Below, piece after piece: positions 638 through 51,322 of a stretch of DNA of 64,000 nt. Position numbers and translations under genes: made by a program. The DNA comes from a virus, in IMG/VR virus record IMGVR_UViG_3300045988_163304, positions 64,001 to 128,000 of that record, one strand, 5' to 3'. The notes below the pieces were generated by a model. That model did no database searches and was not told where the DNA came from. It worked only from the letters and a program-made list of their open reading frames with translations. Each line of letters begins with the position of its first letter. Positions within the stretch are counted from its first letter, which is position 1.

Positions 638-2383
638 ATGGAATACCGCCTAAGAGCACCCGAGTTCCCGATATATACACCGGTAGAACAAGTGCTAGTA
701 AATCGTGGAATACCCTACGATTAGATTAATCATTATTTAAACACTACTGATAATGACATTTTAGACCCTCGGTTAATACCGCACTTGGATGAAGGTGCTA
801 AAATGCTTATTAAACATATTTCACAAAATGACAAAGTTCTGATATAGGTAGATAGTGATTGTGATGGATATACGTCTGCCGCATTACTTATGAATTATCT
901 ATATTGTCTATTTCCCAGTTTTGTGAATAATAACATTTCTTATCGTGTCCATATGGGAAAACAGCACGGTATCATTCCAGATACAATTCCAGAAGACGTT
1001 AAATTAGTAATAGCTCCAGATTCAAGCTCAAATGACTATGAAGCTCATGAATATTTAAATCTAAGTGGAGTTGACGTGCTGGTAATAGACCACCATGAAG
1101 CTGATCACATTTCTAAATATGCTTGTGTAATTAATAATTAGTTATGTGATTATCCTACTAAATCATTATCTGGTGTAGCGATGGTCTGGAAATTTTGTTG
1201 CTACATTGATATGTTATTAAAAACTAACCATGCGTAGAAGTTTTTAGATTTAGTAGCTCTTGGATTGGTGGCCGACATGATGGATGTGCGAGATTTTGAA
1301 ACAAGAAGATTAATAGATAAAGGACTTCAACAAATCCGCAATCCTTACTTCAGAGGTGTGATTGATAAAGACCAATTTCATTTTACAAATGAGATTACAC
1401 CTATTGGAGTAGCTTTTTATATTGCTCCATTAATTAACGCGACAACTCGCGTCGGAACGCAAGAAGAAAAGCTCATGCTATTCGAATCAATGCTTGATTT
1501 TCGGGGATACGAACTTGTCCCATCAACAAAACGTGGATGTAAAGGTCAAGCAGAAACGAGAGTAGAACAAGCTTGTCGAAATTGTACCAATATTAAAAGT
1601 AGGCAAACCAAAATTCGAGACAATAGCTTGGAAAAAATTGAATAGATAATCGTAAATCAAAACTTATTGAGTAATAAAATCTTAATCGTTCAATTAGATG
1701 ATTTGATTACTGACCGCAACCTAACTGGATTAATAGCAAATCAATTAATGAGTAAATATCAAAGACCTGTTTTAATCTTAAATAGAATTGAAAATGAAGA
1801 TGGTACAATAACTTGGGAAGGGTCTGGTAGAGGATACGACAAATCTCGATTGAAAGATTTTAGAGGATTTTTAGAAAATAATAAATATGTTATGTACGCC
1901 GAAGGCCATGCAAATGCATTTGGTGTTGGTATTAAAGATGAAGATATTAGCGCATTTATTGTATCTACAAATTCTGCTCTAGACGGTTTTGATTTCACCC
2001 CAATCTATAATGTAGATTTTATCTACAAATCAGATGAGCTGACTCCTGATAAAGTTATTGATATTGCAGGAATGAAAAGCTTATGGGGCCAAGGAGTAGA
2101 AGAAGCTGAAATTGCAGTAGAAGGTATTAAAGTTCATAAAGACAATATACGTATTCTATCGCCAGATAAAAATCCTACTCTAAAGATAATGTTGCCGAAT
2201 GGCATCAATTTTATGAAGTTTAGGTCGTCTGAAGAGGAATATGATAAACTATATTCCGAATTAGGTTATGTGACAATTAATATCGTTGGTGAATGCGAAC
2301 GAAATATTTGGAATAATAAAATTAGTCCTCAAGTTATGATTAAAGATTACGAAATTGTAGATAGGGCAAATTATTATTTTTAA
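638..2383 (+). CDS. RecJ-like DHH/DHHA1 single-strand DNA exonuclease; five in-frame TAGs at 722, 845, 1139, 1235 and 1646
   Basis: RBS AAAGGAGGG then ATG 638. DHH motifs VDSDCDGYTSAALL and DHHEAD, RecJ-like LSGVAMV and LDLVALGLVAD, and DHHA1 GHANAFGV. The three ORF-track fragments share one frame and are joined only by TAG. Confidence 0.8.
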
Positions 2384-3563: not shown

Positions 3564-4760
3564 ATGATTTTAACAAATAAACAAGAACAAGGATTAAAAA
3601 TAGCAGTAGAACGATATAAAAATAAAGAACGATATACAGTAATAGCAGGTTATGCTGGAAGTGGTAAATCAACTCTAATTAAATTTATTATCTCTGCCTT
3701 AGGAGTAAATCCAGAAGAAGAAGTTTGTTATGTGGCATTTACTGGTAAAGCAGCCACAGTTCTCTAGACTAAAGGTTGCCCGAATGCGACTACTGCTCAT
3801 TAGTTATTATATAAAGCGCGGATTACGCCTAATGGAACATATAAATTTTTCCCAAGACCAAGAGAAGAAATAGTACATTATAAAGTAATTGTAGTAGATG
3901 AAGTTTCAATGCTCCCTAAAGCTATGTGGGAATTACTTCTATCTCACGGTATTTATATTTTGGCAACCGGCGACCCAGGTCAATTACCACCAATAGTCGA
4001 TGAAGATAATAATCATGTTCTCGACAATCCACACGTTTTCCTTGATGAAATTATGCGTCAAGCGCAAAATAGTGAAATTATTAGATTTTCAATGTGGATT
4101 CGTGATAACAAACCAATCTCTTCATATAAGGGCACTGAGGAACAGGTTTTAATTCGATTTAAATGGGATGAAATGCTTCCTTAGATGTATAATTGGGCAG
4201 ATCAAATTATTTGCTCAACAAATGAAAAACGAAATGATATTAATCGTATAGTCCGAACTCAAAAAGGATATGACCCAGATCGACCTTGCATTGGAGATAA
4301 ATTAATTGGATTACATAACCAATGGGATTTTATGTCTTCTAGTCATACATGGGCATTAACTAATGGGACTATTGGGATATTAGAAAATTTCTACGTTGAA
4401 GATATACGATTTCCCTATTGGATTTATAAAAATCCTGTACCATTTATGTATGCTCAATTAAGGCTTGACGATGATGATACATTTTGTGGAGTCCCTATTG
4501 ATTATAATCAATTATTAACTGGCAAAAGAACATTTGAAGGAAAACAAATTTATCAAATTAAAAAGAATAAAAATTGTCCTGACCCTCCATTTGATTTTTC
4601 ATATGCCTATGCCATTACTTGCTGGAAAGCGCAAGGTAGTGAATATAATAAAGTATTAGGGTTTGAAGAAGCTCCACCTTATGATAGAGAAACTCATAAA
4701 AAGTATTTATATACCTTAGCAACAAGAGCTAAAGAGAGGTTGGTATTAATTAGAAAATGA
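3564..4760 (+). CDS. Dda/RecD-like SF1 helicase; three in-frame TAGs at 3768, 3801 and 4182
   Basis: Walker A GYAGSGKST, GDPGQLPP, DEVSM, and motifs V/VI CWKAQGSEY and LYTLATRAKERL. The three ORF fragments share one frame. Confidence 0.8.
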
Positions 4761-5387: not shown

Positions 5388-5424
5388 ATTATTATAAATA
5401 AAATAAATGAGAAAGAGGTGGATT

Positions 5425-8400
5425 ATGCGACCATATTTTGGCGTACACAACCATACTCACTATTCAAATCTGCGTTTATTAGATTCTATTAATAGACCAG
5501 AAGAGTTGATTAAAACAGCAGAAAAATTAGGATTAAGTGGTATAGCAATTACTGACCACGAATGTTTATCTGCTCATATGGAAGTTAATCAATTTGCAAA
5601 AGATTTTTTAAAAGAGCATCCTGATTTTACTATTGCGTTAGGTAATGAAATCTATTTAACTGATACAAGAGATTGTGGTCAAAAGTATTATCATTTTATT
5701 CTATTGGCAAAAGATGAAATCGGTTATAAAGCATTAAAAGAATTGAGTTCAACTGCTTGGATTAATTCTTATACTGATAGAAAAATGGAACGTGTGCCAA
5801 CACTAAAATCTGAATTAAAAAATGTAATGGCACAATATAAAGGACATGTTATCGCAACAACAGCTTGCATTGGTGGTGAATTAGGTTCTAATTTATATCC
5901 AATGTATGAGGCTGAAGTAGTAGGCGATATACAAACTAAAAGCATTTATTATAATAATGTTGTTAGATTCATTGAATTTTGTATAAATGTTTTTGGTAAA
6001 GACGATTTTTATTTAGAGTGTGCTCCGTCTACCATGAAAGACCAACTTGTAGTAAATCAAAAGATTTATCAAGTAGCAAAAGCATATGATTTAAAAATGG
6101 TAGTTGGAACCGATGCTCATTATTTAACAAAGAAAGATAGACCAATTCATAAGGCTTATTTAAATTCTAAAGATGGCGAACGTGAAGTTGATTCATTCTA
6201 TGAATTCGCTTATGTAATGGATAGTGATGAAGTAGAAGAATTAATGCTACCATATATGGATACTTGGGATAAAAATAAAACTCCTCAAGAAATTATGAAT
6301 TGGATTTTTGATAATACATTAGAAATTCAAAAGAAAATAAAATTTTATTCTCTGGAACGTAAACAACAAATTCCAAGAGTAGAAGTAATTGATTATAAAA
6401 AAGGATTCATTCCAGCAGATTGGCTTGAGAAATATCCTGTTATTTGTTCACTGATTAATAGTGATGATATTCAAGAACGATATTGGGTGAATGAATGTAT
6501 TAAAGCACTGCAAGAAAAACAATTATATGAGAATGAAACATATATATCTCGACTTGAAACTGAAGCTAATGTAATTAAAAATATTGGCGAAAAACTTGAA
6601 GATTGTTTGTTTGCTTATTTTAATGCATTTAAACATTATATTGATTTGTTCTGGGAGTGCGGAAGTATTGTTGGCCCAGGTCGTGGCTCAGCAACTGGTT
6701 TTTTATCTAATTATTTATTGGGAATTACTCAGCTAGATCCAATTCGTTGGGGATTACCATATTGGCGTTTCTTGAACTTAGAGCGCGCAGAGTTGCCTGA
6801 TATTGATATCGATCTTGCGCCAAGCAAACGCCCGGCAATTTTTAGTGCTATTCGTAAAGAGCGGGGAACATTAGGTTTAATTCAAGTTGCAACGTTTGGA
6901 ACTGAAGGAACAAAGCAAGCAATTTTAACTGCTTGTCGTGGTTATAGAAGTGATGATTATCCCAATGGTATTGATGTAGATGAAGCTCAATTTATGTCTT
7001 CATTAATTCCGCAGGAACGTGGATTTTTATGGCCGATGAAAGATGTAGTAAATGGTAATCCTGATAAAGATAGAAAACCAGTAACTACATTTATCCAAAA
7101 GGTAAATCAATATCCTGGTTTATTGGATATTATTGTATACATTGAGGGCATCGTTAATAAACGTTCTTCTCATGCTTCTGGTGTTATTCTATATGGAGAA
7201 GACCCATTTGAAACCGCGTCATTTATGAAAACCCCTAGTGGTGATTTAATTACTTGTTGGGATTTGCATAAGGCTGAAGCCGCCGGAGATACTAAATATG
7301 ACTTCCTGGTAACAGAAGCATGTGATAAAATTATTCAATGTTATAATTTATTAAAAGAGGATAATCAAATTCCTGATATTGGTCTACGTGATTTTTATAA
7401 TAAATATCTTCATCCAGAAGTAATAGATACTTCTGATAAGCGCATTTGGGAACATTTGGCCGCGGGAGATATTCTTGACGTATTCCAATTTTCTACTGGT
7501 GTAGGTTTAGCTATTGCTAAAAAACTGAAACCAAAAGATCCTATGGAAATGACAGCCGCAAATGCTATGATGCGTCTAATGAGTGAAAAGGGCAAAGAAA
7601 GTCAGCAAGATAGATATTATCGAATTCAAAAAGCTGGTATTCAAGTTTTTGATAAAGAAATGAAAGATAATCATTTGCCAGACGAAATGATTGAAAAAAT
7701 GCATAAGCATTGTGATAGATATTATGGATGTTGTCCACTTCAAGAGCAAATGATGGAAATCCTTATGGATGTCGCTGGATTTACATTAGGCGAAGCAAAT
7801 AGCGCGCGTAAAGTTGTTGCTAAAAAACAAATGGCAAAAATTCCTCAATTAAAAGAGCAAGTATTTAGTAAATTTACTAATGAACATAATGCTGAATATT
7901 TTTGGGAAAATGCAATCGCTCCTCAATTGGGATATGCATTTAGTTTAAATCATTCTCTTCCTTACTCATTTGTTGCAATTCAAATGATTTATTTGGCAAT
8001 TAATTTCAATCCTATTTATTGGAATTGTGCTTGTTTGATTGTAAATAGTGGAGCATTAGAAAATGAACCAGAAGAAATGAGCGATGAAGATTATGATTAT
8101 TCTGGCGAAGAATATTGTGGTGTTTCTCCAGAAGATGTAATGGAGAATAAACCAAAAAATAAAAAAGTGGCTAGTACTGATTATGGTAAAATTGCTAAGG
8201 CGATTGGAGATATTCAGTCTGCTGGTATTAAAGTCAGTTTAGCTGATATTAATAAAGCTAAATTTGGATTCGCGCCCGACGTTGAAAACAATCAAATTCT
8301 ATTTGGTTTAAAAGGATTATTGAATGTTGGCGATGATTTGATTAATAATATTATTGCAAATCGTCCATATATATCAGTGAAAGATTTTTATTATCGCATT

Positions 8401-9378
8401 AAGCCAAGTAAGCAAGCAATGATTTCATTGATTAAAAGCGGTGCATTTGATGAAATGATGGACCGTAAAGATTTAATGATTTGGTATATTTGGGAAACAT
8501 GTGATAAAAAATCTCGTTTAACATTACAAAATTTAGCAACTTTAATTCGTTATAATTTATTACCAGAAGATAAAGATGAATATATAATTGCAAGACGAGT
8601 TTACGAATTTAATAGATATTTAAAAGCCGTTTGTAAAGATGGTAATGTGTATAAAGTCGATGAACGAGCAATTAATTTCCTAACTGAAATTGGTTGTGAC
8701 GATTTAATTGGTAGTTGTTACCTCTTAGATTCTAAAGCTTGGGATAAAGTATATCAAAAATATATGGATACATTCCGGGCTTGGATTACAGAGAATAAAG
8801 ATGTTATTTTAAATAAACTAAATAATAAAATATTTAAAGATGATTGGGATAAATATGCATCTAAATCTATTTCTGCGTGGGAGATGGAAGTTTTGTGTTT
8901 CTATTATCATGAGCATGAGTTAGCCCATGTAAATAATAGTAAATATGGATTTGTCGATTTCTTCCATCTACCAGAAGAACCAATTGTTGATAAAGTTTTT
9001 TCTAAGGGTAATAAAACGATTACTATGTATAAATTACACAAGATTTGTGGAACTTGTATTGCTAAAAATAAAACTAAATCAACAGTTACATTACTCACTA
9101 CTTCTGGAGTTGTTGAAGTTAAATTTAGAAAAGAATATTTCTCATTATTTGATAAACAAATTTCAGAAAAACAAGCTGATGGTACTAAAAAAGTAATGGA
9201 AAAAAGCTGGTTTAATCGTGGTAATATGATTGCTGTTCAAGGTATTCGTCAAGGTGATAATTTTATAGCGAAAAAATATGCCAGCTCTGGTGGTCATCAA
9301 TTATATAAAATTGATAAAATTTTAGATAATGGTGATATTGAATTAAAAGATGAAAGATACAATGGAGGATCTAATTAA
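5425..9378 (+). CDS. dnaE: DNA polymerase III alpha subunit (DnaE-type) with an N-terminal PHP domain; no internal TAG
   Basis: PHP motif GVHNHTHYS; palm active site GSATGFLSNYLLGITQLDP...PDIDIDLA; RBS AGAGGTGG. Confidence 0.85.
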   Translation: MRPYFGVHNHTHYSNLRLLDSINRPEELIKTAEKLGLSGIAITDHECLSAHMEVNQFAKDFLKEHPDFTIALGNEIYLTDTRDCGQKYYHFILLAKDEIGYKALKELSSTAWINSYTDRKMERVPTLKSELKNVMAQYKGHVIATTACIGGELGSNLYPMYEAEVVGDIQTKSIYYNNVVRFIEFCINVFGKDDFYLECAPSTMKDQLVVNQKIYQVAKAYDLKMVVGTDAHYLTKKDRPIHKAYLNSKDGEREVDSFYEFAYVMDSDEVEELMLPYMDTWDKNKTPQEIMNWIFDNTLEIQKKIKFYSLERKQQIPRVEVIDYKKGFIPADWLEKYPVICSLINSDDIQERYWVNECIKALQEKQLYENETYISRLETEANVIKNIGEKLEDCLFAYFNAFKHYIDLFWECGSIVGPGRGSATGFLSNYLLGITQLDPIRWGLPYWRFLNLERAELPDIDIDLAPSKRPAIFSAIRKERGTLGLIQVATFGTEGTKQAILTACRGYRSDDYPNGIDVDEAQFMSSLIPQERGFLWPMKDVVNGNPDKDRKPVTTFIQKVNQYPGLLDIIVYIEGIVNKRSSHASGVILYGEDPFETASFMKTPSGDLITCWDLHKAEAAGDTKYDFLVTEACDKIIQCYNLLKEDNQIPDIGLRDFYNKYLHPEVIDTSDKRIWEHLAAGDILDVFQFSTGVGLAIAKKLKPKDPMEMTAANAMMRLMSEKGKESQQDRYYRIQKAGIQVFDKEMKDNHLPDEMIEKMHKHCDRYYGCCPLQEQMMEILMDVAGFTLGEANSARKVVAKKQMAKIPQLKEQVFSKFTNEHNAEYFWENAIAPQLGYAFSLNHSLPYSFVAIQMIYLAINFNPIYWNCACLIVNSGALENEPEEMSDEDYDYSGEEYCGVSPEDVMENKPKNKKVASTDYGKIAKAIGDIQSAGIKVSLADINKAKFGFAPDVENNQILFGLKGLLNVGDDLINNIIANRPYISVKDFYYRIKPSKQAMISLIKSGAFDEMMDRKDLMIWYIWETCDKKSRLTLQNLATLIRYNLLPEDKDEYIIARRVYEFNRYLKAVCKDGNVYKVDERAINFLTEIGCDDLIGSCYLLDSKAWDKVYQKYMDTFRAWITENKDVILNKLNNKIFKDDWDKYASKSISAWEMEVLCFYYHEHELAHVNNSKYGFVDFFHLPEEPIVDKVFSKGNKTITMYKLHKICGTCIAKNKTKSTVTLLTTSGVVEVKFRKEYFSLFDKQISEKQADGTKKVMEKSWFNRGNMIAVQGIRQGDNFIAKKYASSGGHQLYKIDKILDNGDIELKDERYNGGSN

Positions 9379-9974
9379 TGTATAATATATTAGCATTAAT
9401 TGGTGAAGCGGGGAGTGGTAAGGATACCATTCTCCGTAAACTAATTGATGATACAAAACATTATTATAATGGTAAATTACCTCTACATGAAATTATAAGT
9501 TATACTTCGAGACCTCCAAGAGAAAAAGAAGTGGATGGTATTAATTACCATTTTATCTCAGCAGAAAAATTTGCTGAAATGATTTTATAGAATCAAATGT
9601 TTGAAGCTACTGTTTTTAATGAATGGTGCTATGGCACAGGAATTGAGTCAGTCAAAGAAGGCGCTATCAATGTAGGAGTATTTAATCCAGAAGGCGCAGA
9701 GATTCTATTACATGATAAACGAGTAAATTTAATTATCGTTTATATCCACGCAGATGATAAGATTCGATTAATTAGACAGTTAAATCGAGAAGTTAACCCG
9801 GATATTGATGAAATTATTCGTCGATATAAAACAGATAAACTCGATTTTGAAGATGCTGATGATTTATGTAATTGGTTATATATAAATAATACTCCTGCGG
9901 AATTAGAATATATATATAAAGATTTAGCATTGTTCCTGTCTCGATGGCCGGAGCATCTGGACACAACTTATTAA
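9378..9974 (+). CDS. guanylate-kinase-like nucleoside monophosphate kinase; one in-frame TAG at 9591
   Basis: P-loop GEAGSGKDT; TSRPPREKEVDGINYHF...YGTG matches the Gmk family. The two ORF fragments share one frame. Confidence 0.65.
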
Positions 9975-10046: not shown

Positions 10047-12296
10047 ATGTTTTATATAATTAAACGTAATGGCGATGTAATGCCATTTAACAAACAAAAA
10101 ATTATTGATGCTATTACTAAAGCATTTATTGCTGTAGATAAAAATATTTTTGAATCAGATAGTATTAATAGCATCGCTGATGAAGTAGAATATAGAGCGA
10201 GTCATTTCCCCGATGGAAGCGTTAATGTTGAAGACATCCAAAATTGGATTGAAGAAGCATTAATGGCATCAGAGCGTCCTGATATTGCTCGTGCTTATAT
10301 TCGCTATAGATATAAAAAAGAAGTTGCTCGCACTCATTCAACTGAATTTATTGCTGCAATTGGTGAAAAAATTCGTGGAGCTAATATTCAAAATCAAAAT
10401 GCTAATGTTGATGAAGCATCATTTGGTGGGCGTATGGGTGAAGCTAATAGTCTCTTAATGAAGCAATATGCTCTTGATTATATCGTATCTCCTCGTACAA
10501 AACGTAATCATGAAGAGAATATGATTTATACCCATGACCTTGACCATTATGCTGTGGGTGACCATAACTGTTTATCAATTCCATTTGATGATTTGCTTGC
10601 TAATGGATTTAATACTCGTCAAACAGATGTGCGTCCAGCAGGTTCAGTAAACACAGCATTTCAATTAGTTGCAGTTATTTTTCAATTACAATCTCTTCAG
10701 TAGTTTGGTGGAGTGAGTGCTACTCATCTTGATTGGACTATGGTTCCCTATGTTAAAAAGAGTTTTAGAAAACATTTTAAAGCATATTTAACTGATGTTG
10801 ATGATTATAGTGAAGGTATGGCTCTACAAATTATGAGTGATTGTGAGCCTATTGAAATTTCTAATAAAGAATTGCAAAGTCAATTTGGTCATCAAAATGC
10901 TTATAATTATGCTCTAAAACAGATAGAAAAAGAAATCCATCAAGCAGTTGAAGGTATGTATCATAATTTAAATACTCTTCAAAGTCGTAGTGGTAATCAA
11001 CTTCCATTTACTTCTATTAACTATGGAACTTGTACTCTTCCAGAAGGAAGAATGATTACAAAAGCCATATTAGAAGTGTCTCTTGAAGGATTAGGTAAAT
11101 TACATAAAACTTCTATTTTCCCTTGTGGAATTTTCCAATGTATGAAAGGTGTTAATAGAGAACCAGGTGACCCGAATTATGATTTATTTAAACTTGCGTT
11201 AAAATCTACTGCTAAAAGATTATATCCTAATTATGCAAATGTTGATTGGTCTGGAAATGCTGGCTATGATATTAATGACCCACGCACCTATTTTAGCACA
11301 ATGGGATGCCGAACTGCTAATGGATATGATATTAACGGTTTAGGTCAATTAAAAGATGGCCGTGGCAATATTTGTCCGGTAACTATTATTATGCCTACAC
11401 TAGCTATGATGGCAAAAGAAGCAGCTGAAAATAGTGATTTTCAATTAACTCCAAAAGCTGCTAGGATTAGAAGTTTTATGACTTTACTTGATGAAAAAAT
11501 CCATGAGGCAAAAGATCAATTAATTGAACGTTTTAATTGGATTTGCTCTCAAAGTCCGGCTTCAGCTAAATTCATGTATGAAAACAATCTAATGGCAGGT
11601 TATATTCCCGAAGAAGGAATTAGAAGTGCGCTTAAACATGGAACACTGGCTCTAGGTCAGTTAGGACTAGCAGAAACTCTACAAATTCTTATTGGCGTTG
11701 ACCACACTACTCCAGAGGGAATGGAATTAGCAAAAAAAATTGAATCCTTATTTAAACAGCGTTGTGCGGAATTTAAGGAACAATATAAATTAAACTTCGG
11801 TGTTTATTATACTCCCGCAGAAAATCTCTGTTATACTGCAATGAAGAAATTTAAGGCTAAATACGGCGAAATTCCTAATGTAAGTGATAAAGAATTTTTT
11901 ACTAATTCAATTCATGTTCCTGTATGGAAAGAAATGAGCCCATTTGATAAAATTGATATTGAGAGTCAATTAACTGGATATAGTAATGCCGGTTGTATTA
12001 CTTATGTTGAGTTAGATTCTACTGTATCTAATAACTTAACTGCTCTTGAGCAAATTGTAAATTATGCTATGGATAAAGATATTCCTTATTTTGCTGTAAA
12101 TGTTCCTAATGACACTTGTCTCAAGTGTGGATATACTGGTGAATTCAATGATAAATGTCCAGAATGTGGTAGTAAAGAAATTCAGCAACTTCGTCGTGTG
12201 ACCGGTTATTTAACTGGTAATTATAAAACTGCGTTTAATTTAGGAAAGCAAGATGAAGTTGAACATCGAGTCAAACATGTAGGAGTGATGGAATGA
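10047..12296 (+). CDS. nrdD: anaerobic ribonucleoside-triphosphate reductase NrdD; one in-frame TAG at 10704
   Basis: LNTLQSRSGNQLPFTSINYGT; C-terminal Zn ribbon CLKCGY...CPECG and glycyl-radical RVTGY. The two ORF fragments share one frame. Confidence 0.85.
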
Positions 12297-12787
12297 GATA
12301 CGCCGGGATAATTAAAAATGATATTGCTGGAGCTCCTGGAGTGTGTGTCTCATTTTTCACTCAAGGATGCGCCAGACATTGCGAGGGCTGTTAGAATCCA
12401 GAAACTTGGGATTTTAATGGCGGAAAAGAATTTACTACAGATACATTAGATGATATAGTAAATGCTCTTACTGCTAATGGTATACATCGTGATTTTTGTA
12501 TTATGGGAGGAGAACCCCTCGCCCCAGAAAATCTATTCCTTGTAGATTTAATTATTGAACATATTAAAGAAGCTCTTCCTAAAACAAAAATTTTTTTATG
12601 GACTGGATATATAATGGATGAATTGGCTATGCGCAGAGAGCCACATCTAAAAAATATTGTTGATAATATTGATTGTATTATTGACGGCCCATTTAAGATT
12701 GAACAACGAGATATCACCTTACCTATGCGTGGCTCACGCAATCAAAAAGTTTATTACGCTCCATTTGACTTATGGGAAAAAATATGA
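12293..12787 (+). CDS. nrdG: anaerobic RNR activating radical-SAM protein NrdG; one in-frame TAG at 12392
   Basis: ATGA start/stop overlap with nrdD. GCARHCEGC-[TAG]-NPETW matches the NrdG CxxxCxxC motif; C-terminus LWTGY...IIDGPF. Confidence 0.85.
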
Positions 12788-18940: not shown

Positions 18941-21049
18941 TTAAAATACTTTAATCCATACACGCCCATTAACTTTAACTTTTCCCGTTCCCCATTCTTC
19001 ATAATCAGGAACTGCTGAAATAGTACCAATCGCGCAATAGCCTTTATCTCTATATTCTTCATCAGTCATAATAGAAACTGTTCCATCAGGACCAGAGCAT
19101 ACTGGACGCCCAATATTCTTTTTAAATTCTTCATGAGATTCATATGGATAAGCAAGAACACGTCCACTTACTGCTATTGGAGTTTTTGCCTATTCAGTTT
19201 CACCAATAGCAAAACCAAATGTGTCAGATGTAATATTAGCGCCCGGCATCATGCGCTCAGTTGAAGTAATAAGAGTATCGTCACCCACTTCAATCACACA
19301 TTTGCCTGGTTCAATAGTATCTCCTTCACGGAACTCAGCATAGTCATTCCATACTGCTCCATATAAAGGTTGATAAGCTGTAATTTTAGACCCACTCATA
19401 TTCATATAAGAAGTATAAGTTGAGCCATTATTAGAAATATTACCCCAAAAATTAAAACCGCCATTAGCACAAAAACTAATATCTTCACAGTCAACTAAAT
19501 TAGAATTTAATTTACTTGGGAAGACACAACCACCCTCACCAGATGTTATAAATGTAGCTCCATTAGTTGAACCAAAACGCACTGCAGCATTATTTACATT
19601 TGTAGATGCTGTTCCTATCATATCCACTAAATCTGTAGAATAATATGCCCCAGATCCATTTTGATACTATCCAGATAAAACTGGTAATCTGACACCTCTA
19701 GCTGGTTTAGATGTTGTAAATTTAAATGTTATTTTTCCACTCATTGTGTCACCAGTTTTTTTAACATAATTAGAATCATGATTATGAGAATTTGAAGCCG
19801 CTCCAATATTAGCTGGAGTTATATTAATATCTTTAGCAGCACTACCATTATAAGTAAATTGGTTTGTTCCTTCAGTAGTTCCACTGTTTAGTTTAATGAC
19901 TAAATTATTATTAACTTTATCGGCACTACCAGCTTTAGTAGCCGTTGTTGCAGTAGTCGCATTACCATTTAAATTGCCATGGAACCCATTGGGCTAAATG
20001 GAAGCAACTAACTCTCCATCAGCGGCAGTTCCCTTAGTATTTCTATAGAAATTCCAAATTCCACCATATTCATGAAAATCAACTTGATTATGTCCACTAT
20101 ATCCAAAATCAATAGCATGATAATAGGTATTAGCATTACCTTCACCACGGAATTTTGCACTTTGAAAATAATGAGTTTTATCAGTGCCCGTAGCGATATA
20201 AGGAGCAGTAAATAATCCAGTATCATTAATAGTAACTGTTAAATTATTTTTAATGACTTTACCTGTTGCATCAGCAAATGTAGAAACAGCATTTGCAGTA
20301 GAAGTATTAGGTCCTATCACCGCGCCATCAATATTTGTTTGGGCAACAGTCCAATGAGAATCATTTGCTGATAACCCATCAGCAATACAGATAACTAAAT
20401 CTCCTATTTCACAAACTTTTCCGGCATAAGTTCCCGCTTTATTAACACGATAAGTCCAACCTGTTTCATGGGTATCTGGTAAGTTATGAGTGTTATCAAG
20501 AATGCCTTTAAATATCATAGCATCATTGGCACTCAATATTTTATCAACATACTATTTAGTTGTTAATTCTAAATTATCTACTGGGTCTTTGGCTACTTTA
20601 ATACCTTTACCAGCTGTAATTTCAATAGCATGGCCCGTCCCATTAGTATTGTCAATGACAATACCGCGACCTGCTCCAGTATTAGAAATTAAAATTTCAT
20701 CTTTTCCAGCTACATTAGGAATAACTAAAGAACCATTTTTAATACCAATCTAAGTATATTTAGCTTCAATTAAATTTTTTGTAGTATCTTTTAAATTAAA
20801 TGCTAAAATAGGATAAACGATATTATCATTAGTAGGCATTTCAGATGCTTTTAACAAATCACTGGCATAAGCATTTAATGGAATACGATTAGTTCCTATT
20901 TCTGCTTTTGTTGTTGAAGTACCATCACCCGCAATATCAATATAGAACTTGCCATCATCTGTAGTAAAATAAGCAAATCCTTCTTTAGCATTCGGGACAT
21001 TGGTTGTTAAATTTTTAGCCAAGCCCTTACTTACTTTAAATAAAGCCAT
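18941..21049 (-). CDS. tail fiber protein (conserved Gram-positive fiber N-terminus; C-terminal domain shared with gene 22523-23512); at least five TAGs
   Basis: The four same-frame track ORFs are joined by TAG. N-terminus FAYFTTDDGKFYID; RBS AAGGGAG; TAA at 18941. Confidence 0.65.
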
Positions 21050-37566: not shown

Positions 37567-40500
37567 TTACTCATTAAATATTTTAATAATTTCTTCCTCA
37601 GAATAATAAGAAATAGAAAAAATCTACTAGTTTTCCAAATAGTATTCTTCTTTATTATTTGGATCAACTAAAATATTTTTCCAAATACTATTAATATTTA
37701 ATGAATCAAAAGGATACTTATCTATATTTAATTTATAATAATGCGCGGTATCTTTATATTCTAAATCAGTATCATTTTTAATAATTTTATACTAAGGATT
37801 CTAAATATTATCTAAATAATACATAATTAAACATTCATTTTCATTTAAAGAATTAAAAATAGTTTGTAAATTTTCTAAATTGGTCACTTTAATTTCTGTT
37901 AAAGGATTAATTCCAAAATCATTTTCTTCTGCATTATTATAATCTAATAAATATTTTGTTGTTGCTGCCTCAGTGCTAAAAATAATATTAGGTCTATTTA
38001 AAATATATCCAGGAACACCAGGTTTATCTTCTTCCCAATTACTTTGATAATTATCTCGACTATTTTGGAATTCTCTCAATAATCCCCACAATGAATTTAA
38101 ATTACGATAATACTAAATTGTAGGACTATAAACAGACGCTTTTTTATATAAGCAATAAGGTTTATAATAAATGACTCCATCTTTAAATTCATTAGTATAA
38201 ATATCATTATTAAAGTCCTTATCACATATTAAATTTATAGTATCAATTATTTGATTATTATCATCAAAAATAATAGCATCTTTAATAATATAATCTTTCT
38301 TTTTAGGGTCAGTTAAATCATTAGGAGTAGCTTTTATAAAATAGGCTAAAGATGAATTAAATTTTTCAGTTGCTGAAACTTGATGCCAAATTGGAGAATC
38401 ATCATCTAATACATATAAAGGACCAAAAGCGCCATCGTGTAATTTATTAAAGGTTTTACTATTTTGAATATAGCCAAATGTTATATCTCCAGCATGATCG
38501 CCCTATAACAATGTTTCCTGAGTTGGGTATTCATAACGATTATAATAAGTTCTTAAAGGTAAAAATTTATCAATATTATAATTATCACTATATTTTCCTA
38601 ATAACTCAGAAATTCCATTATATAAACCCCATAGGCTTTCTTCACTAGGAATATCATAATAATCATTATCAGTTTTTAAACCTAATATTTTATAAATATA
38701 TCGAATTAATCCTGCTAATGTAGTTGGATATTCATCTGAATGAATTTTATCTCTATCATTACCAATAAATAAATAACGAGGAGCATCTAATGAAGTATTA
38801 TCCTCTTTAAAAATGTAATAAGTAGTATTTGGGTCAAGAATATCATCTTTACTAACTTGAATATAATAAGATCCATTCTTATAATATAAATCGCCATTTA
38901 AATAATATTTATTGTTATAATAGGCATTTGGATTATCAGCGCCTCCATGAATATCTGGATACTCTTCCCAAATTCCTCTTGGATAAACTAAATCCCATAA
39001 ATCTGATACAACGTTACCCAATTCTGGTAAATTAATATCAAAAGTTCGCTGGTCGATTTGTTTAGCATATTTTAATGCACCATTTACATAATATCCTGCG
39101 TCAGATAACTAAAAATCAAATGGATGAGTCGCATTTGAATATACTCCTTCTTCACTTTGATTTAATAGTTTCTAACCTTGCATATCCATATGAACTGGAT
39201 ACAATTCACCAGAACTAGTTTTAGTTAAATAAATCTAATTTTCAGCACTTTCAATATAATTACGACGTTCAGGATTAAAACCTGCTTTATTATAATGAAA
39301 TTTAGTATAAGTATCAAATTTCCAATTTCGAGGAATATGTAATTTATAATCTAAATCAGTACTTCTAAAAGTATCTATGTGGGGACCACCATTTACGCGC
39401 ACTTTAGTACGTTCAAAATATTTCTAAGTGGAATCATATTCATCATCATTGGTAATTTCAATTAATTTATTATTTTTAAATGTATATATTTGCTAAGGTA
39501 CAACTTTTAAACGATCAAATAATTCTTTAGAAATATACCCTGATTGCTAAAAAGTTTTATGATAATAGCGATAACGAGTGCCGATACCATCTGTGGCTTG
39601 ATATTTCCATCCTGGATAAATACCATCATAAGTAGTTATTGCTCCACTATAATTATTAGAAATAAAAATATTTCCAATGCTATTTAAATAACTGTCTAAT
39701 GTATCTTGGCTTTTTATTAATTCATTTCCTGTTTCATCAACTAACCAATCATAAATAACTAAATCGCTTAAAATTTCTTTGTATTGAAAATAAGGGCCTA
39801 TATAAACATCTTTAATAGGAATTATTTCATTCTAATTTTTTTGATATTGAGGAATTTCATTTTTTCGAACTATAATTGCGTTATCGATTGCATTTTGCCA
39901 AGTTAAATATACTGCATTATAATTATTCTATATTGTATTAAATCTAGTAATTAAACCATTATATAATTCTACATTTTCAGCCTATCCTAATTTTTCAGCC
40001 ACATCTTTCTAATTTTCTAACTAAGTTAAATAAGCATCAGCGCCATTAATTTTTCCATTATGTTCTTCAGAAAATGATAAATTATTCTCAATAAACAAAG
40101 TAGTATTTTTATTATTATTTTCAAAAGTTATAACTTCTTGTAAAGCTGTTTTAATTTTTGCTTCAGCCTCAAGAACTATTTGAGATTTTGTATTCCAAAC
40201 ATTTTTAATAAATTCTATTGGTAATTCTTCATATAAATCAATAGTTGTAACAGAATCATCAAAACCAATTTCTTTTTCTCCAGATTTATAATAATAAGTA
40301 TTTAATAAAGATAATTCATTACGATTACCATCTTCATATTTGATACTTACAATTTGATATTCATCATTATCAGAAGGAGCATCTACTATAGCTTCAAATT
40401 TTGGGGCTTTAGCGTCTAAACTAGATACCATAATATATTTTTCAGTAATAGTAGAATTACTTCCTACTGAACACCAAATTTTTTGCCAAACAGTATGATC

Positions 40501-41040
40501 ATAATTATCTTGATATTCTTTTTTATCAATTTCTTTATTAATAGCATATTCACAATTTTCGTCTATGCCATCAGGAGTTAATCGATTATTATCTTTTAAT
40601 ACATCGCTTTTTTTTATATAATACTAAATAGTATCATCATAACTCTCGCTCTTTTTAACTTCACAATATTCTCCATAAGGGCGAGTTCTTAAAGCTGTAG
40701 TATAATCATCATTTGTATTATAAATACTATAATTCTTTTTCTAAATATCTTGACCAATTTTATAAGTATATAATATTGGACATTCATTAGTAAATACATT
40801 TTTTTGATGCCAAACATCTTGAATATCAACTGATTTATAAGGACTATATCTACGCTCTCCATAGTTAATTAAAACATATCGCGTATTATAAACTCCATCG
40901 CCGAGAGTGTCTGCTTTATTAGATTTATCCTAATGAATTTTACTAATGGCTTCTTCCATAGCAGCTCGATTAGGATAAGTTTTATCAAAAACTAAAGAAA
41001 TTCTAGAATTAGTTTTTATATTACCATAAAAAGAACCCAT
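37567..41040 (-). CDS. large (~1150 aa) baseplate or tail structural protein; about 20 TAGs, including a tandem TAG-TAG at 37624-37629
   Basis: The 37801, 38503 and 40021 track ORFs and the start at 41040 share one frame. Explicit translation across 38100-38520 and 39000-39120 needs only TAG. Confidence 0.5.
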
Positions 41041-41381
41041 TAGCTTCCCTCCTTTTCATAAAGCATATCAATTAATAAATACGCATCTTGATTTTCATCT
41101 ATATTTGTTAATGACATTTCATCAAAATTAATAGAAGTTATAACTCCAGTGCCTTGAGTCATATCTAATTCATACAACCCAATCCCACCTAGCATAATAT
41201 AATCTTGATTAGCATTAAGTCTAAATTTTGTACCTGGTAAACTCTGAATACCTATTTTTACAATAGGAGTATAATCATCAAAAATTGTTCCAGACATTAA
41301 TTTAGCTTTACTAATAGTTGTTGGATAATTTTTTTCATTCAATTCTCCAAAATATCTAAACTAAACAATTCCTTTAGACAT
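41040..41381 (-). CDS. small baseplate-like protein; one TAG
   Basis: RBS GGAGAAGGAG; TAATG overlap with the downstream gene. Confidence 0.4.
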
Positions 41382-41398
41382 TTACTCCTTCTCCTCTC

Positions 41399-44005
41399 TT
41401 ATAATAACCTTGGCGGTGCTTTTGTTGCTGTAATTGTCATTGTTCCATTGTGTGTTAATTGTAATGATATTTTATTAAGTATATATTCACCATGTATATC
41501 ACTTTTATTATCATCTACTGTAATAATACTATTTGGTTCTAAATAATATATAGGGATAGTTTTTAAACTAATCTTTTCATTCATATAAGCATATTGATAA
41601 AGTAAATCATTTAATTCAGTATAAGCTGTTTTGCTCTATGAAGTAATATTAAATTTATTTTCATAAATAGAAGATAAAGGCATATAAGCATACCCATCCT
41701 ATAACATATTCTATTTTTTATATAATTCATATTTTTCAGGATTAATATAAATAATATTAGGAGTATCTCTATAAATAATAGACTTAATAGCATCATTATT
41801 AACAATTTTCGGCCTATCTCCAATAGCTTTTACAGAATACTTGCCAATAAAACTACTAGCGTCTTCTATAAAATCCATCCAATAAACAAGAGCAGAAGGA
41901 TCATTAACATAAGTGCGATTCCAACCATAATACACTTTTTCCTAATCCGTTAATTTATTTGTATGTCCCGCTTTAACAACATAATATTTATCTTCATCAT
42001 CAGAAGTAGGATTATAAATATCTCTCCAATATAATAACATATCGGCATAATAACTTTCATATCCAGTCTATCCATTTTTATAAGTTGGATTTAATTTAGC
42101 TAAACGTATAGCATAATCATCATCATGACCATATTGCTAATAATCACAAGCCATTTGGTATATTAATTCACGCCAATTCTATTTTGTATAATAAATATTT
42201 TCAGAATCTTGAGTAGGAATAATTGGTTTGTAAACAAAAGCTCTACCACCATGCTAATACAATGGATCAAAATAACTATTCCAAGGATGAGTGCAAGAAG
42301 CGCCATGACCAACATATCCAATAGTATTATCTGATAGTAAATCAAAAACATATAAATCTTCTTTCTCATTATCCCAACTACCATAATAAGGTCCAATTTT
42401 TGCTCCATTATAAGTATAAGCCATTAAATCATTATCAGTTGCAGGAGTATAAATTTCATTTAAATTAATTTTCGCGCCGTTTTCTTTTTTATAATATTTA
42501 CTTAATACACCGGCAGGATAATCACCAAAATATAATTTATATAATTCTGCCCAATCTTTAACGTCCCACCAATCTTCACTCAATGGCTCTCCTGTTAAAG
42601 TATCATTTGGGTTAAGCGTTTTTGCAAACTCTCCAGTGGCTTCTGGATCATAACTACGATAAGTAATACCAGCGAACGTAGTATAAATCTTTGGTTTTTC
42701 ATCAATAGCATATCGTAAATGAATTGGAGCTCCCTCACTATTAGAAGAAGTTGAATTTTTTTTACCCCAAATAATAAAATTATTTTTTATTTTAGAAAAA
42801 TCTGGCGTATTCTAAAATGAAGTAATTAATATATTATCAGAAAAATTATATTTGCTCTTAGAAGTTAACATAGCATTTTCTTCATATAATTGGTTATATT
42901 CATAATTAGTTAAACTATTTTTATCAATAGCTTTTATTTCTTTATCTTGTATTACATCAGCACTATTTTCTGTTCGGACAACACTCGTCCAAGATTGATT
43001 AACATAAGTCATTTTTTTCTAAAAAATAAATTGTCCATTAATATCATAAAAATATTCATAAGTCCCAAAAGTAGAGCAAATTTTATCTAATACAGAAGTA
43101 ACTGTATCTCCTACATTTACAGCTAATCCATCTTCTGTTGGCCAATATAATTCTACATCTCGATATCCAGCAGTAGAATTAGCTTCAATCTTAGAAACAT
43201 AATATCCTATCTTATCAGTAATACCATCTTTTAATTTTATTTTAAAATCTGTCGATCCAATAGGAGTTAATTCATTATTAGTTAAATCTTGTAACTAAAC
43301 TTTTCTACCATCCATAGTATATTTTGTCATACTGCCGTCAAAAGTAATATTTACATAAATACCATTATCATCTAAGAAAGCATATAAATCGCCATCATTA
43401 TATTTCAAAAGCTCTAACCCCCGATCAGTTAAATCTTTTATTAAAATATTATGAAAAGGTTCATTGCCGTAAAAATGAATCATTTCTCGGACAATCTAAA
43501 AAATAGGAATTTTAACATTAGTAAAACTACCATCTGGATTTTCTCTGCGCTCAACAGCAAAGTCTATCGGATTCGGGAAATTTCCTCCCACTTCTCCATT
43601 TAATAAACACATTTTATCTTTTCCAGAAATTGAAATCATACATTGATTAGAAGATAAAGAGGTGTTAAAATTAGTAATAACAAATACTCCTTGCGGAAAC
43701 CAAATAATATTTTCATAATCATCATCAATATTATTAATTAAACCAATATATAGTTTAAATTTAGTAGTCAAACCCCAATAAACATCGGTAATATTTACTC
43801 CAGTAGAAACAAGAGAAATCGAACAAGACCGACGTATAGCGGAGGATCCATCAATATTAATGGATCCTCCAGTGGCCTTTCCTTCAATTAACTCTATAGG
43901 CTCTTCATCTTTATTTAAACTAATTATTTTTATAAAAATTTCTTTCTAATTATTTAAATCTAATTTTTTTAAAAATTTTGTATCTAATAATGGATTATTT
44001 TTCAT
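41399..44005 (-). CDS. tail or baseplate protein (~865 aa); many TAGs
   Basis: Six track ORFs (41399, 41711, 42254, 42812, 43295, 43496) share one frame. Confidence 0.45.
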
Positions 44006-44022
44006 TGATACATACCCGCCTT

Positions 44023-50000: not shown

Positions 50001-51300
50001 CTCTTGTCTAAATTATAGCATCTAATTTATTAAAATCATTAAATTCTACTGTTAAATGCTCAATTGTTATATACAAAAAATTCATTAAATTATTATAATG
50101 ATTTTTTTCTCCATCAACAGTTCCTATCCCTTCTACAAAACTCTTTAAAAAACTTCCTAAATTAATAATATAATCTCTTGATGTTTCTATCAAAGAACTT
50201 AAAAGACCTGTTGGAATACCAGTTAATTCATTTAATAAATATAAATTATTTTTAATATGACTCTAACAATTTTTCAACGCTAAAGAATTTTCGGAGGCTG
50301 ACAATAAATTTACCCAATGAGCAAAATTATTACTTTCATAAAATGTTTTTATTTTAAGACATAAATTTTTATTATATTTATAATATGTATTAGTTTTTGT
50401 CATTGAAAGAATAATATTTTCTTCTCTTAAAACTCTTTCTTTGCCTTTAAATCCAACTTTAATACAACCATTATTAGGTTCAGCAGTTGTAGTAATAGTT
50501 AAATCTTTTCCCGGAGCTAATAAAGTTTCTGTTGTTACTCTATAACTTGGGCTAGAAGCAACAAATCCATTTAATGTAGTTACTGTGTATATTAATTTAT
50601 AAATTTCATTTGTTTTAATAAAACTACTTAAAGTAATAGTGTCGGTAGATATTCCATATTCAATATCATTAGCATTATTATGTAATAATTCTCTTGTGGT
50701 ATAATATAATTCATCATCTTCTGTATAAAATGAAAAATTATAAGAATATACCTTTTCACTCTAATCTAAATCATCAGATAGCTAATATACGCCATGTAAT
50801 TCATTATTAAAAACATTTACACTATCAATAGTATAATTTTGAATATAAACCACTGGATTTTGAATACATTTAATAATTCCAACAGTAGAATAATATCCTA
50901 TTAATTTTTTAAAAGTAGTAATTGTCTAAATATTTCCTTCACTATCTTTATAAGTATTAGTAGAGTCAACATATTTTGATATATAAGCAATCTAAATCTT
51001 ATAATACTAACCTTCATTTAATAATTTTCCATATTTAGAAGGAATAGTAAATGTAACTGTAGATTTTTCTATATCAAAATTAGTAGATTCAATAGGATCA
51101 AATAAAAAAGTATTTGTAGATGCCGTTCTTAAGCGCAAACTAAATCCAACAAAATCTCCATTATTAACAGCTACACTGGCAGTAAAAGGAATAACTAACT
51201 AAATATCTTTTAAAACTTTAGTTTCACCTGTTATTGTATAAGTTTTACAAAAAGCTGGTAACGTTCCAGCTATTTGCGGAGGATATAATCTTTCAGGCAT
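44023..51300 (-). CDS. giant (~2425 aa) Tal-like tail-tip protein; dozens of TAGs
   Basis: Seven track ORFs from 44518 to 50008 and the start codon at 51298-51300 share one frame. RBS AAAGGAGAG; the 3' end translated explicitly to TAA at 44023. Confidence 0.45.
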
Positions 51301-51322
51301 ATTTTTCTCTCTCCTTTATCTC

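What the first reader, a model, noticed from the sequence alone, without database searches (positions are those of the whole stretch)
12380..12400. Identity of the amino acid inserted at TAG is not settled
Most TAGs align with polar residues in homologs. In Dda it sits at the R/S of the TIH[R/S]LL motif. In RecJ it aligns with Glu near the FLNP segment. In Gmk it is at the R/N position. In the 18941-21049 fiber it aligns with Lys in the paralog (GETE-TAG-AKTPIAV vs GETEKAKTPIAV). All of these fit Gln. In NrdG, however, the TAG sits right after the radical-SAM CxxxCxxC motif (GC-TAG-N), where E. coli, T4 and Lactococcus NrdG have Tyr. So Gln is likely by precedent but not proven.
Basis: partly seen in the sequence, partly recalled or inferred. 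Interest (0 to 1): 0.6.

Follow-up and report, generated by a model that had tools for sequence, protein, structure and literature searches.

The report
TAG codon encodes glutamine here
This phage genome segment uses the stop codon TAG as a sense codon. Comparison with several hundred related sequences shows it stands for glutamine, the reassignment already known from other gut phages, so the apparent exception in one enzyme is not an exception.

Summary
Codon 34 of the NrdG gene (12293-12787, +) is TAG at 12392-12394, directly after the radical-SAM CxxxCxxC motif. E. coli and T4 NrdG have Tyr there.

That column is not a conserved Tyr:
- Closest relatives carry TAG (NrdG 96-98% and 87% identical).
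- A relative with NrdG 79% identical carries CAG.
- The next TAG-recoded clade carries CAA or CAG in 18 of 18 loci.
- Standard-code relatives, PFL-activase and 101 of the 120 nearest database homologues have His.

Window-wide, the 36 genes hold 240 in-frame TAGs. Of 147 well-aligned TAG positions, relatives show TAG at 89, CAA at 51, CAG at 15 and TAT at 3. Relatives place TAG at 31% of window CAG sites, 16% of CAA sites and at most 4.3% of sites of any other codon. Gene-matched substitution profiles favour Gln over Lys by 60-70 log-likelihood units and over Tyr by about 240. Gln won every bootstrap.

The NrdD TAG aligns with the Gln of T4 NrdD (HQYGG).

This is ordinary genetic code 15 in a roughly 198-kb gut phage. 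No suppressor tRNA was found in the window or in about 74% of the closest relatives' genome, so the decoding machinery is still unseen.

The parts
12392..12394 (+). In-frame TAG, codon 34 of NrdG, immediately after the third cluster cysteine. This is the codon the finding is about.
   Evidence: Sequence read. Aligned codons in 43 relatives: TAG 6, CAA/CAG 18, CAC/CAT 18, TTC 1. Further relatives: TAG at 87% and CAG at 79% NrdG identity.
12368..12391 (+). Radical-SAM cluster motif C26-x3-C30-x2-C33 of NrdG.
   Evidence: Translation. Aligns with the CxxxCxxC of PFL-activating enzyme 3c8f.
12293..12787 (+). nrdG, anaerobic ribonucleotide reductase activating protein, 164 aa, one TAG.
   Evidence: Pfam Fer4_12 1.9e-35 and Radical_SAM 9.4e-09. 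4620 database homologues.
10047..12296 (+). nrdD, class III ribonucleotide reductase, 749 aa. One TAG at 10701-10703 in the motif LQ-TAG-FGG.
   Evidence: Pfam NRDD 1e-145, ATP-cone and Gly_radical. This column is Gln in all 27 sense-codon relatives and TAG in 15. It is Gln in T4 NrdD (HQYGG) and 9d3x (SQYGG), and Met in 8p23.
638..2383 (+). RecJ-like DHH exonuclease with five TAGs, starting at 722, 845, 1139, 1235 and 1643.
   Evidence: Pfam DHH and RecJ_OB. The column at 1139 is Gln in 46 of 46 sense-codon relatives. The column at 845 has Gln as the majority residue.
3564..4760 (+). Dda/PIF1-like SF1 helicase with three TAGs, starting at 3765, 3801 and 4182.
   Evidence: Pfam AAA_30, AAA_19 and UvrD_C_2. 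Relatives show R/Q at 3765, K/R at 3801 and E/G at 4182.
9378..9974 (+). Guanylate kinase with one TAG at 9588-9590.
   Evidence: Pfam Guanylate_kin 2.9e-19. Relatives have E 17, A 12, N 5 and Q 1.
5407..9378 (+). DNA polymerase III alpha-type replicase, 1323 aa, no TAG at all.
   Evidence: ORF list. 39-40% identical to SPbeta YorL-type polymerases. Used as the anchor to fetch relatives.
18941..21049 (-). Tail-fibre-like protein with five TAGs. The TAG at 19190-19192 faces Lys in the window paralogue at 22523-23512.
   Evidence: GETE-X-AKTPIAV against GETEKAKTPIAV. Relatives at 19190: TAG 3, CAA 1, AAA 1, GAA 1.
37567..63984 (-). Late structural block: eight genes, including a 2433-aa protein and a 2766-aa tape-measure-like protein. 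It holds 181 of the 240 in-frame TAGs (20.8 per 1000 codons).
   Evidence: Most of the TAG-column statistics come from here.

Best explanation
TAG in this window is a glutamine codon (translation table 15). The window is about one third of a roughly 198-kb, 30%-GC uncultivated gut phage. The phage is distantly related to SPbeta-like and phAss-like phages.

Shown by the sequence data:
- TAG has largely taken over the role of CAG. CAG stays at about 2.7 per 1000 codons everywhere. TAG rises from 4 per 1000 in replication genes to 21 per 1000 in late structural genes.
- TAG codons arise from and revert to CAG by a single C/T transition, and they exchange freely with CAA.
- In NrdG the residue after the third cluster cysteine is His in the wider family. 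It became Gln in this lineage and is now spelled TAG in the window phage.

Inferred, not shown:
- A phage-supplied tRNA with anticodon CUA reads TAG and is aminoacylated through the host's glutamine route. The route would be GlnRS, which recognises U35, or Glu-tRNA followed by amidation.
- The high TAG density in late genes delays their translation until the suppressor is present.
For: 1. NrdG column by clade. NrdG 96-98% identical: TAG (6 loci). 87% identical: TAG. 79% identical: CAG. Next recoded clade, 57-59% identical: CAA or CAG in 18 of 18 loci. Standard-code clade and phAss-1: CAC or CAT.

2. Forward test. Of 147 well-aligned window TAG positions, relatives carry TAG at 89, CAA at 51, GAA at 23, AAA at 18, CAG at 15 and TAT at 3. 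CAA differs from TAG by two bases, so mutational proximity cannot explain its frequency.

3. Reciprocal test. Relatives have TAG at 31% of window CAG positions and 16% of CAA positions. The figure is at most 4.3% for every other codon.

4. Likelihood with gene-matched substitution profiles.
- First set of relatives: Gln beats Lys by 70 log-likelihood units, Glu by 88 and Tyr by 242, and wins 2000 of 2000 bootstraps.
- All 275 loci: Gln beats Lys by 60 and Tyr by 236, and wins 1000 of 1000 bootstraps.
- Standard-code relatives only (40 columns): Gln is still first, with 871 of 1000 bootstraps.

5. Columns held at 90% or more by one residue: Q 14, E 4, K 2, N 2, Y 1, W 1.

6. Distant, standard-code, structurally solved homologues. 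The NrdD TAG aligns with Gln in T4 NrdD and in 9d3x.

7. Gene ends.
- Every ORF ends in TAA or TGA. This follows from how the ORFs were defined.
- Homology continues downstream of the C-terminal TAGs where relatives align.

8. Literature.
- TAG-to-Gln is the only TAG reassignment reported in phages infecting standard-code hosts (bioRxiv 10.1101/2021.08.26.457843).
- It has been confirmed by metaproteomics in crAss-like phages (abstract of PMC9523058).
Against: - No suppressor tRNA was found. There is none in the window (ARAGORN; Rfam at E<=1). There is none in roughly 146 of 198 kb of the closest relatives' genomes. The decoding step is therefore inferred.
- Only about a third of TAG columns are Gln in relatives, against 44-57% for genuine Gln columns. 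TAG sits mostly in fast-evolving late proteins.
- A few columns point elsewhere. At 54632 relatives have TGG (Trp) in 14 of 14. At 48313 they have Tyr in 7 of 7. These fit ordinary replacements by single-base neighbours.
- Comparative data show which codons TAG is exchangeable with over evolution. They cannot exclude a minor fraction of another amino acid, or of termination, at each TAG.
- Some 'Q' residues in database homologues are themselves code-15 translations of TAG. Those were not used as evidence.
Confidence: 0.93

Rival explanations
1. TAG encodes tyrosine. This is the possibility raised by the NrdG position, where E. coli and T4 have Tyr.
For: - E. coli and T4 NrdG have Tyr after CxxxCxxC.
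- TAT and TAC are single-base neighbours of TAG.
- One TAG column (48313) is Tyr in 7 of 7 relatives.
Against: - Tyr accounts for 1.2-1.4% of residues at TAG columns.
- The likelihood is about 240 units worse than for Gln.
- Relatives put TAG at only 0.3% of window Tyr positions (position-weighted).
- The NrdG column is H, Q, F or W in near homologues and never Y among the 120 nearest.
Confidence: 0.01
2. TAG is read as Lys or Glu, or ambiguously as Gln plus Glu. The Glu case could arise if a Firmicute host without GlnRS charges the CUA tRNA with Glu and amidation is incomplete.
For: - Glu and Lys are the next most frequent residues at TAG columns, at 8-12% and 7-10%.
- Lys wins 106 of 1000 bootstraps when only the 40 columns seen in standard-code relatives are used.
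- The window paralogue has Lys opposite one TAG.
- From established knowledge of tRNA-Gln formation, many Firmicutes make Gln-tRNA by the GluRS plus GatCAB route.
Against: - E and K are also the commonest replacements at genuine Gln columns.
- The likelihood is 60-88 units worse than for Gln.
- Relatives place TAG at 0.4% of Glu positions and 1.9% of Lys positions (position-weighted), against 7.2% of Gln positions.
- Columns that are invariant Gln in relatives carry TAG: NrdD 10701 and RecJ 1139.
Confidence: 0.04
3. The TAGs are real stops. The genes would then be pseudogenes or fragments, or be expressed by occasional readthrough, and no amino acid would be regularly inserted.
For: Under the standard code the late region breaks into short ORFs. 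No suppressor tRNA was found.
Against: - There are 240 in-frame TAGs but no in-frame TAA or TGA in the same 36 reading frames.
- Homology continues across the TAGs.
- 89 TAG positions are shared with relatives.
- Essential genes are affected: NrdD, RecJ, helicase, tape measure.
- Whole clades of relatives show the same pattern.
Confidence: 0.01
4. TAG encodes pyrrolysine or tryptophan.
For: - ARAGORN labels any CUA tRNA 'Pyl'.
- TGG is a transition neighbour of TAG.
- One TAG column (54632) is Trp in 14 of 14 relatives.
- One phAss-1 suppressor has a tRNA-Trp-like anticodon arm.
Against: - Trp accounts for 0.7-0.8% of residues at TAG columns, and its likelihood is about 245-268 units worse than for Gln.
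- No Pfam match among the 13 window proteins scanned points to pyl genes.
- A Pyl reading would predict a Lys-like profile, which loses to Gln by 60-70 units.
Confidence: 0.01

Closest known systems
Genetic code 15 (TAG to Gln) in gut phages: crAss-like phages, Lak phages and the 'gemstone' clades of Borges et al. (bioRxiv 10.1101/2021.08.26.457843; metaproteomic validation in PMC9523058)
   Same: - In-frame TAG in otherwise intact conserved genes.
- TAG columns align best with Gln.
- Much heavier use in structural and late genes than in replication genes.
- Related lineages use the standard code, TAG recoding or TGA recoding. That paper describes this for four of its clades.
   Different: - Clade membership (for example Agate) was not tested. 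No terminase phylogeny was made.
- Replication genes are also recoded at low density here.
- No suppressor tRNA has been seen yet.
phAss-1 / proposed 'Phassvirus' group (OQ749652; PMC10607447)
   Same: - Human-gut phage with TAG recoding.
- Pol III alpha replicase, NrdD and NrdG.
- A tape measure protein of roughly 3000 aa.
- Converging early and late blocks.
   Different: - No megablast match among 50,697 phage records, and no Pol III alpha hit in that collection reached 60% identity (best listed 39.7%).
- The genome is about 198 kb against 136 kb.
- phAss-1 has 36 tRNAs, including three CUA tRNAs, two of them directly upstream of nrdD. The window has none there.
- phAss-1 NrdG has His (CAT) at the column in question.
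SPbeta-like Bacillus and Enterococcus phages (YorL-type Pol III alpha)
   Same: They are the best cultured-phage matches to the replicase, at 39-40% identity over 99% of its length.
   Different: They are not reported as recoded (not checked here). The relationship is distant and no DNA similarity was detected.
NrdG / PFL-activase family of glycyl-radical activating enzymes
   Same: CxxxCxxC followed by x-N-x-x-T-W. Encoded next to nrdD. Pfam Fer4_12 and Radical_SAM.
   Different: The residue after the third Cys varies across the family: Y in E. coli and T4, H in PFL-AE and most near homologues, W in phage phiL47, F in a few, and Q or TAG in this lineage.

Membership tests
Code-15 (TAG to Gln) recoded phage | Reading TAG as sense restores long, contiguous genes of the correct length | tested here: met
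   ORF coverage rises from 39.8 kb to 69.2 kb. 36 genes carry 240 in-frame TAGs.
Code-15 (TAG to Gln) recoded phage | TAG columns in alignments match Gln better than any other residue | tested here: met
   Gln is first by at least 60 log-likelihood units and wins all bootstraps on the full set. The NrdD TAG equals the Gln of T4 NrdD.
Code-15 (TAG to Gln) recoded phage | TAG is not used as a terminator | tested here: inconclusive
   All ORFs end in TAA or TGA by construction. Homology continues past the last TAG in the two genes where relatives align. Two other genes have C-terminal TAGs with no aligned relatives.
Code-15 (TAG to Gln) recoded phage | Phage-encoded suppressor tRNA with anticodon CUA | tested here: inconclusive
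   None in the window. None in about 74% of the closest relatives' genome. About 52 kb could not be fetched. Borges et al. detected such tRNAs in only 40% of TAG-recoded genomes.
Code-15 (TAG to Gln) recoded phage | Peptides with Gln at TAG positions | not testable with these tools
   This needs proteomics of virions or infected cells.
NrdG (class III RNR activase) | Radical-SAM CxxxCxxC cluster motif near the N-terminus, with family profile match | tested here: met
   C26, C30 and C33. Fer4_12 at 122.6 bits against a cut-off of 22.
NrdG (class III RNR activase) | Encoded next to nrdD | tested here: met
   nrdD at 10047-12296 overlaps the nrdG start by 4 nt.
   The column is not conserved. It is Y in E. 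coli and T4, H in 101 of the 120 nearest homologues and in PFL-AE, and F, W or Q in others. It is not a defining feature of the family.
Phassvirus (phAss-1 genus) | Nucleotide similarity and synteny with phAss-1 | tested here: not met
   No megablast match in the phage collection. No Pol III alpha hit in that collection reached 60% identity. The nrdDG / Pol III gene order differs.
Agate clade of Borges et al. | Placement in the terminase phylogeny of that study | not tested
   The terminase lies outside the window (seen in relatives at L137:4586-6334).

The most novel reading that the evidence does not exclude
This roughly 198-kb lineage may read TAG as Gln without a conventional phage tRNA-CUA. 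None was detected in the window or in about three quarters of the genome of its closest relatives.

Two possibilities follow:
- A non-canonical suppressor or some other decoding device.
- A suppressor charged through the Glu-then-amidation route of a GlnRS-less Firmicute host, which could make TAG partly ambiguous between Gln and Glu.
Probability: 0.1. Interest if true: 0.6.

Novelty: new member of a known kind. Interest (0 to 1): 0.2.

Why it matters
- Annotation. The window and its relatives should be translated with table 15. Under the standard code the late region breaks into short fragments, including the three giant structural proteins of 2433, 2721 and 2766 aa.
- Method. A single distant-homologue column is weak evidence about codon meaning, as Tyr in E. 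coli and T4 NrdG showed here. Codon-level comparison with close relatives settles the question without a tRNA or proteomics.
- Biology. Nothing new follows about the code itself. What stays open is how this lineage enacts the code change, because its suppressor has not been located.

Tried and rejected
Suppressor tRNA search
- ARAGORN on the window and on every fetched locus found none outside phAss-1.
- Rfam at E<=1 on the window, and at E<=0.1 on the GC-rich island of a relative, found no tRNA.
- ARAGORN with relaxed thresholds or introns gave only scattered, evidently false hits. No CUA anticodon appeared among those listed.

Walking along the relatives' genomes
- I walked out of the window on both sides using search for related loci and the search for homologous proteins plus look-up of encoding contigs.
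- This reached about 146 of 198 kb with no tRNA.
- One scan found nothing, because the 63352-63984 protein is too variable.

Other searches
- Megablast against GenBank phages found no match. No whole annotated relative could therefore be read.
- The GTDB genome scan returned only two MAG contigs, labelled 'Mollicutes' and 'Clostridium sp.'. They look like binned phage contigs, so I did not use them to name a host.

Evidence set aside
- I did not use the 'Q' in the nearest database NrdG homologues. Two of the four nearest were looked up: one Q is a code-15 translation of TAG and the other is a real CAG.

Searches considered and dropped
- A generic anticodon-loop plus T-loop DNA pattern search of IMG/VR. 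Hundreds of chance and unrelated hits were expected against an unknown output cap.
- Using phAss-1 genes next to its tRNA array as queries, as too distant.

Full report
**The observation**

An ORF at 12293-12787 (+) reads MRYAGIIKNDIAGAPGVCVSFFTQGC-ARH-C-EG-C-TAG-NPETWDFNGG. The TAG is at 12392-12394, directly after the CxxxCxxC motif. The ORF is an NrdG-type radical-SAM activase (Pfam Fer4_12, E 1.9e-35). It lies immediately downstream of an NrdD gene.

TAG is clearly a sense codon throughout the window:
- ORFs of at least 100 aa cover 39.8 kb under the standard code and 69.2 kb when TAG is read through.
- 36 non-overlapping genes carry 240 in-frame TAGs in 20,273 codons and end in TAA or TGA.

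E. coli NrdG (GCVHECPGC-Y-N) and T4 NrdG (GCLHKCEGC-Y-N) do have Tyr at the column.

**What the window is**

The window has about 30% GC and no tRNA gene.
- Replication and nucleotide-metabolism genes lie on the + strand at 1-15.5 kb: RecJ-like, Dda-like helicase, Pol III alpha, guanylate kinase, NrdD, NrdG and dUTPase.
- They converge on a long minus-strand block of structural genes with three giant proteins.
- No megablast match exists among 50,697 GenBank phage records.
- The replicase is 39-40% identical to the YorL-type polymerases of SPbeta-like phages.
- IMG/VR and ENA hold many uncultivated relatives on contigs of up to about 198 kb, with Pol III identities of 98, 77, 59, 56 and 47%.

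Among these relatives some lineages use the standard code even in late genes. Others are TAG-recoded, and at least one is TGA-recoded. Borges et al. describe this mixture for several recoded phage clades.

**The NrdG column**

I mapped the codon aligned to 12392-12394 in each relative.

| Relatives (NrdG identity) | Codon at the column |
|---|---|
| 96-98% (6 loci) | TAG |
| 87% | TAG |
| 79% | CAG |
| Next TAG-recoded clade, 57-59% (18 of 18 loci) | CAA or CAG |
| Standard-code clade and phAss-1 | CAC or CAT (His) |
| One distant relative | TTC (Phe) |

The 120 nearest proteins in the 5.8-billion-sequence database have H 101, Q 9, F 9 and Y 0 at this column. PFL-activating enzyme (3c8f) has His. 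Enterocloster phage PMBT24 has His and Lactococcus phage phiL47 has Trp.

The column therefore tolerates H, Y, F, W and Q. In this lineage it follows the path CAY (His), then CAR (Gln), then TAG. The last step is a single C-to-T transition, which is silent if TAG means Gln. The Tyr of E. coli and T4 says nothing about this phage.

One caveat applies. The 'Q' in the closest database proteins can be a code-15 translation of TAG. Of the two looked up, one was TAG and the other a genuine CAG. I relied only on DNA-level codons.

**Window-wide test**

I aligned all 36 window proteins (TAG written as X) against the fetched loci with tblastn. For each aligned position with good local context (at least 4 of 10 flanking identities, no gaps) I recovered the subject codon. 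Distinct codons were counted once per position, to limit pseudo-replication.

Of 147 TAG positions, relatives show these codons:

| Codon in relatives | TAG positions where it occurs |
|---|---|
| TAG | 89 |
| CAA | 51 |
| GAA | 23 |
| AAA | 18 |
| CAG | 15 |
| TAT | 3 |

CAA is two mutations away from TAG, so proximity does not explain its frequency.

In the reciprocal test, relatives carry TAG at 31% of window CAG positions and 16% of CAA positions. The figure is no more than 4.3% for any other codon.

I then compared the residue spectrum at TAG columns with the spectrum at each amino acid's own columns, re-weighted to the same genes:
- First locus set: Gln wins by 70 log-likelihood units over Lys, 88 over Glu and 242 over Tyr, with 2000 of 2000 bootstraps.
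- All 275 loci: Gln wins by 60 over Lys, 76 over Glu and 236 over Tyr, with 1000 of 1000 bootstraps.
- Standard-code relatives only (40 columns): Gln is still first, at 25% of residues and 871 of 1000 bootstraps, with Lys second.

Among 89 TAG columns with at least five sense-codon relatives, the majority residue is Q in 31, E in 12, and R and K in 6 each. Columns that are at least 90% one residue are Q 14, E 4, K 2, N 2, Y 1 and W 1.

Two columns are invariant Gln in relatives:
- NrdD 10701: 27 of 27 sense-codon relatives. It also aligns with the Gln of T4 NrdD (HQYGG) and of 9d3x (SQYGG), and with Met in 8p23.
- RecJ 1139: 46 of 46 sense-codon relatives.

The refutation criterion in the finding, enrichment of a non-Gln residue at TAG columns, is not met.

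**Codon usage**

| Gene block | TAG per 1000 codons | CAG per 1000 codons |
|---|---|---|
| Replication block | 4.1 | about 2.7 |
| Middle block | 5.8 | about 2.7 |
| Late block (37.5-64 kb) | 20.8 | about 2.6 |

TAG is therefore a commoner Gln codon than CAG in this phage. Pol III alpha (1323 aa) and the five genes at 12815-14952 contain no TAG. Where relatives align, homology continues after the last TAG of a gene, so I saw no sign that TAG terminates any gene.

**The suppressor tRNA**

This part failed. There is no tRNA in the window.

- Leftwards, through primase, helicase, ligase and topoisomerase genes, to about 24 kb upstream of the window.
- Rightwards, through the head, portal and terminase genes, a 15.5-kb GC-rich island of small genes, an iteron-like repeat array and further small early genes.

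ARAGORN found no tRNA in any of these loci. This covers roughly 146 of 198 kb. About 52 kb remains unseen.

phAss-1 is the nearest published recoded phage and is only distantly related. It has 36 tRNAs, three of them with anticodon CUA. These three are heterogeneous:
- One has a 21-nt variable arm.
- One has an anticodon arm matching the phage's own tRNA-Trp except at the middle anticodon base.

Suppressor body type alone would therefore not have settled the amino acid. From established work on E. coli suppressors, CUA anticodons attract GlnRS through U35.

The decoding mechanism is therefore inferred. I take it to be a phage CUA tRNA, charged by the host's glutamine pathway, with late genes gated by TAG density as Borges et al. 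proposed.

**Verdict**

This is a further member of the known class of code-15 gut phages, so the finding is ordinary. What remains open is the location and nature of the suppressor, plus experimental proof by proteomics.

Noticed in passing
L052 and L104 (TGA); L142-L149, L151, L155, L168 and L175 (standard); L137, L114, L126 and L152 (TAG): The phage family around this window contains lineages with three codes. Some use the standard code even in late genes. Some are TAG-recoded. L052 is clearly TGA-recoded: ORF coverage rises from 0.44 to 0.98 with TGA as sense, and there are 24 in-frame TGAs in aligned genes. L104 shows 15 in-frame TGAs.
   Followed up: partly
L201:1500-17000 (= L200:10500-20234), relatives of the window phage, about 15 kb beyond the window's right end and past the terminase: A 15.5-kb island of 43-50% GC sits in an otherwise 25-32% GC genome. 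It is packed with small plus-strand genes that lack in-frame TAG. It lies next to the divergent start of the late operon. No Rfam or tRNA hit was found in the first ~10 kb, the part scanned with Rfam. Its origin and role are unexplained. It could be an immediate-early, standard-code module or a foreign insertion.
   Followed up: partly
L201:18416-19008: A dense array of ACAACCA / TGGTTGT motifs occurs as 20-, 40- and 80-nt tandem units, resembling iterons. Two independent contigs of 166 kb and 168 kb end within about 100 nt of each other at or just after this array. It is either a replication origin, a genome end, or an assembly-breaking repeat.
   Followed up: partly
window 5407-9378 and 12815-14952; L057:562-2618 and 6703-7806: TAG avoidance is gene-specific. 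Pol III alpha (1323 codons) and five consecutive small genes have no TAG. In relatives, three long structural-block genes (unannotated; possibly capsid and tail tube or sheath) also have none. Their neighbours (terminase, portal, tape measure) have 9-59.
   Followed up: no
window, all genes: CAG is nearly absent, at 2.6-2.7 per 1000 codons against CAA at 23-29. TAG outnumbers CAG even in early genes. TAG looks like a replacement for CAG rather than an extra codon.
   Followed up: partly
window 54632-54634 and 48313-48315: Two TAG columns run against the trend. All 14 relatives have TGG (Trp) at 54632, and all 7 relatives have Tyr at 48313. Both are single-base neighbours of TAG, so they are probably ordinary W-to-Q and Y-to-Q replacements.
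   Followed up: no
L055:12442-12610 and L056:5744-5820 (phAss-1, OQ749652): The three CUA tRNAs of phAss-1 are unlike each other. One has a 21-nt variable arm on a Gln-like body. One has an anticodon arm matching the phage's tRNA-Trp except at the middle anticodon base, and a U1-C72 mismatch with G73. The third folds poorly.
   Followed up: partly
L278 (CAMELE010000001.1, 163,874 bp) and L279 (JALFQD010000403.1): Relatives with a Pol III 77% identical are filed in GTDB genomes as contigs of an 'uncultured Mollicutes bacterium' MAG and a 'Clostridium sp.' MAG. These are probably phage contigs binned by composition and are not evidence of the host.
   Followed up: no
P0001-P0004; L276, L277: Public protein databases already hold this NrdG translated with Q at the TAG position. 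Of the two nearest homologues looked up, P0002 has TAG at the column and P0004 has a genuine CAG. Neither gene translates to the stored protein under table 11. Using such entries to infer the meaning of TAG would be circular.
   Followed up: yes
window 18941-21049 and 22523-23512 (-): Two tail-fibre-like genes share a near-identical C-terminal segment (..SDTFGF.IGETE[TAG/K]AKTPIAV.GRVL.YP..). This points to a duplicated or exchanged receptor-binding module.
   Followed up: no
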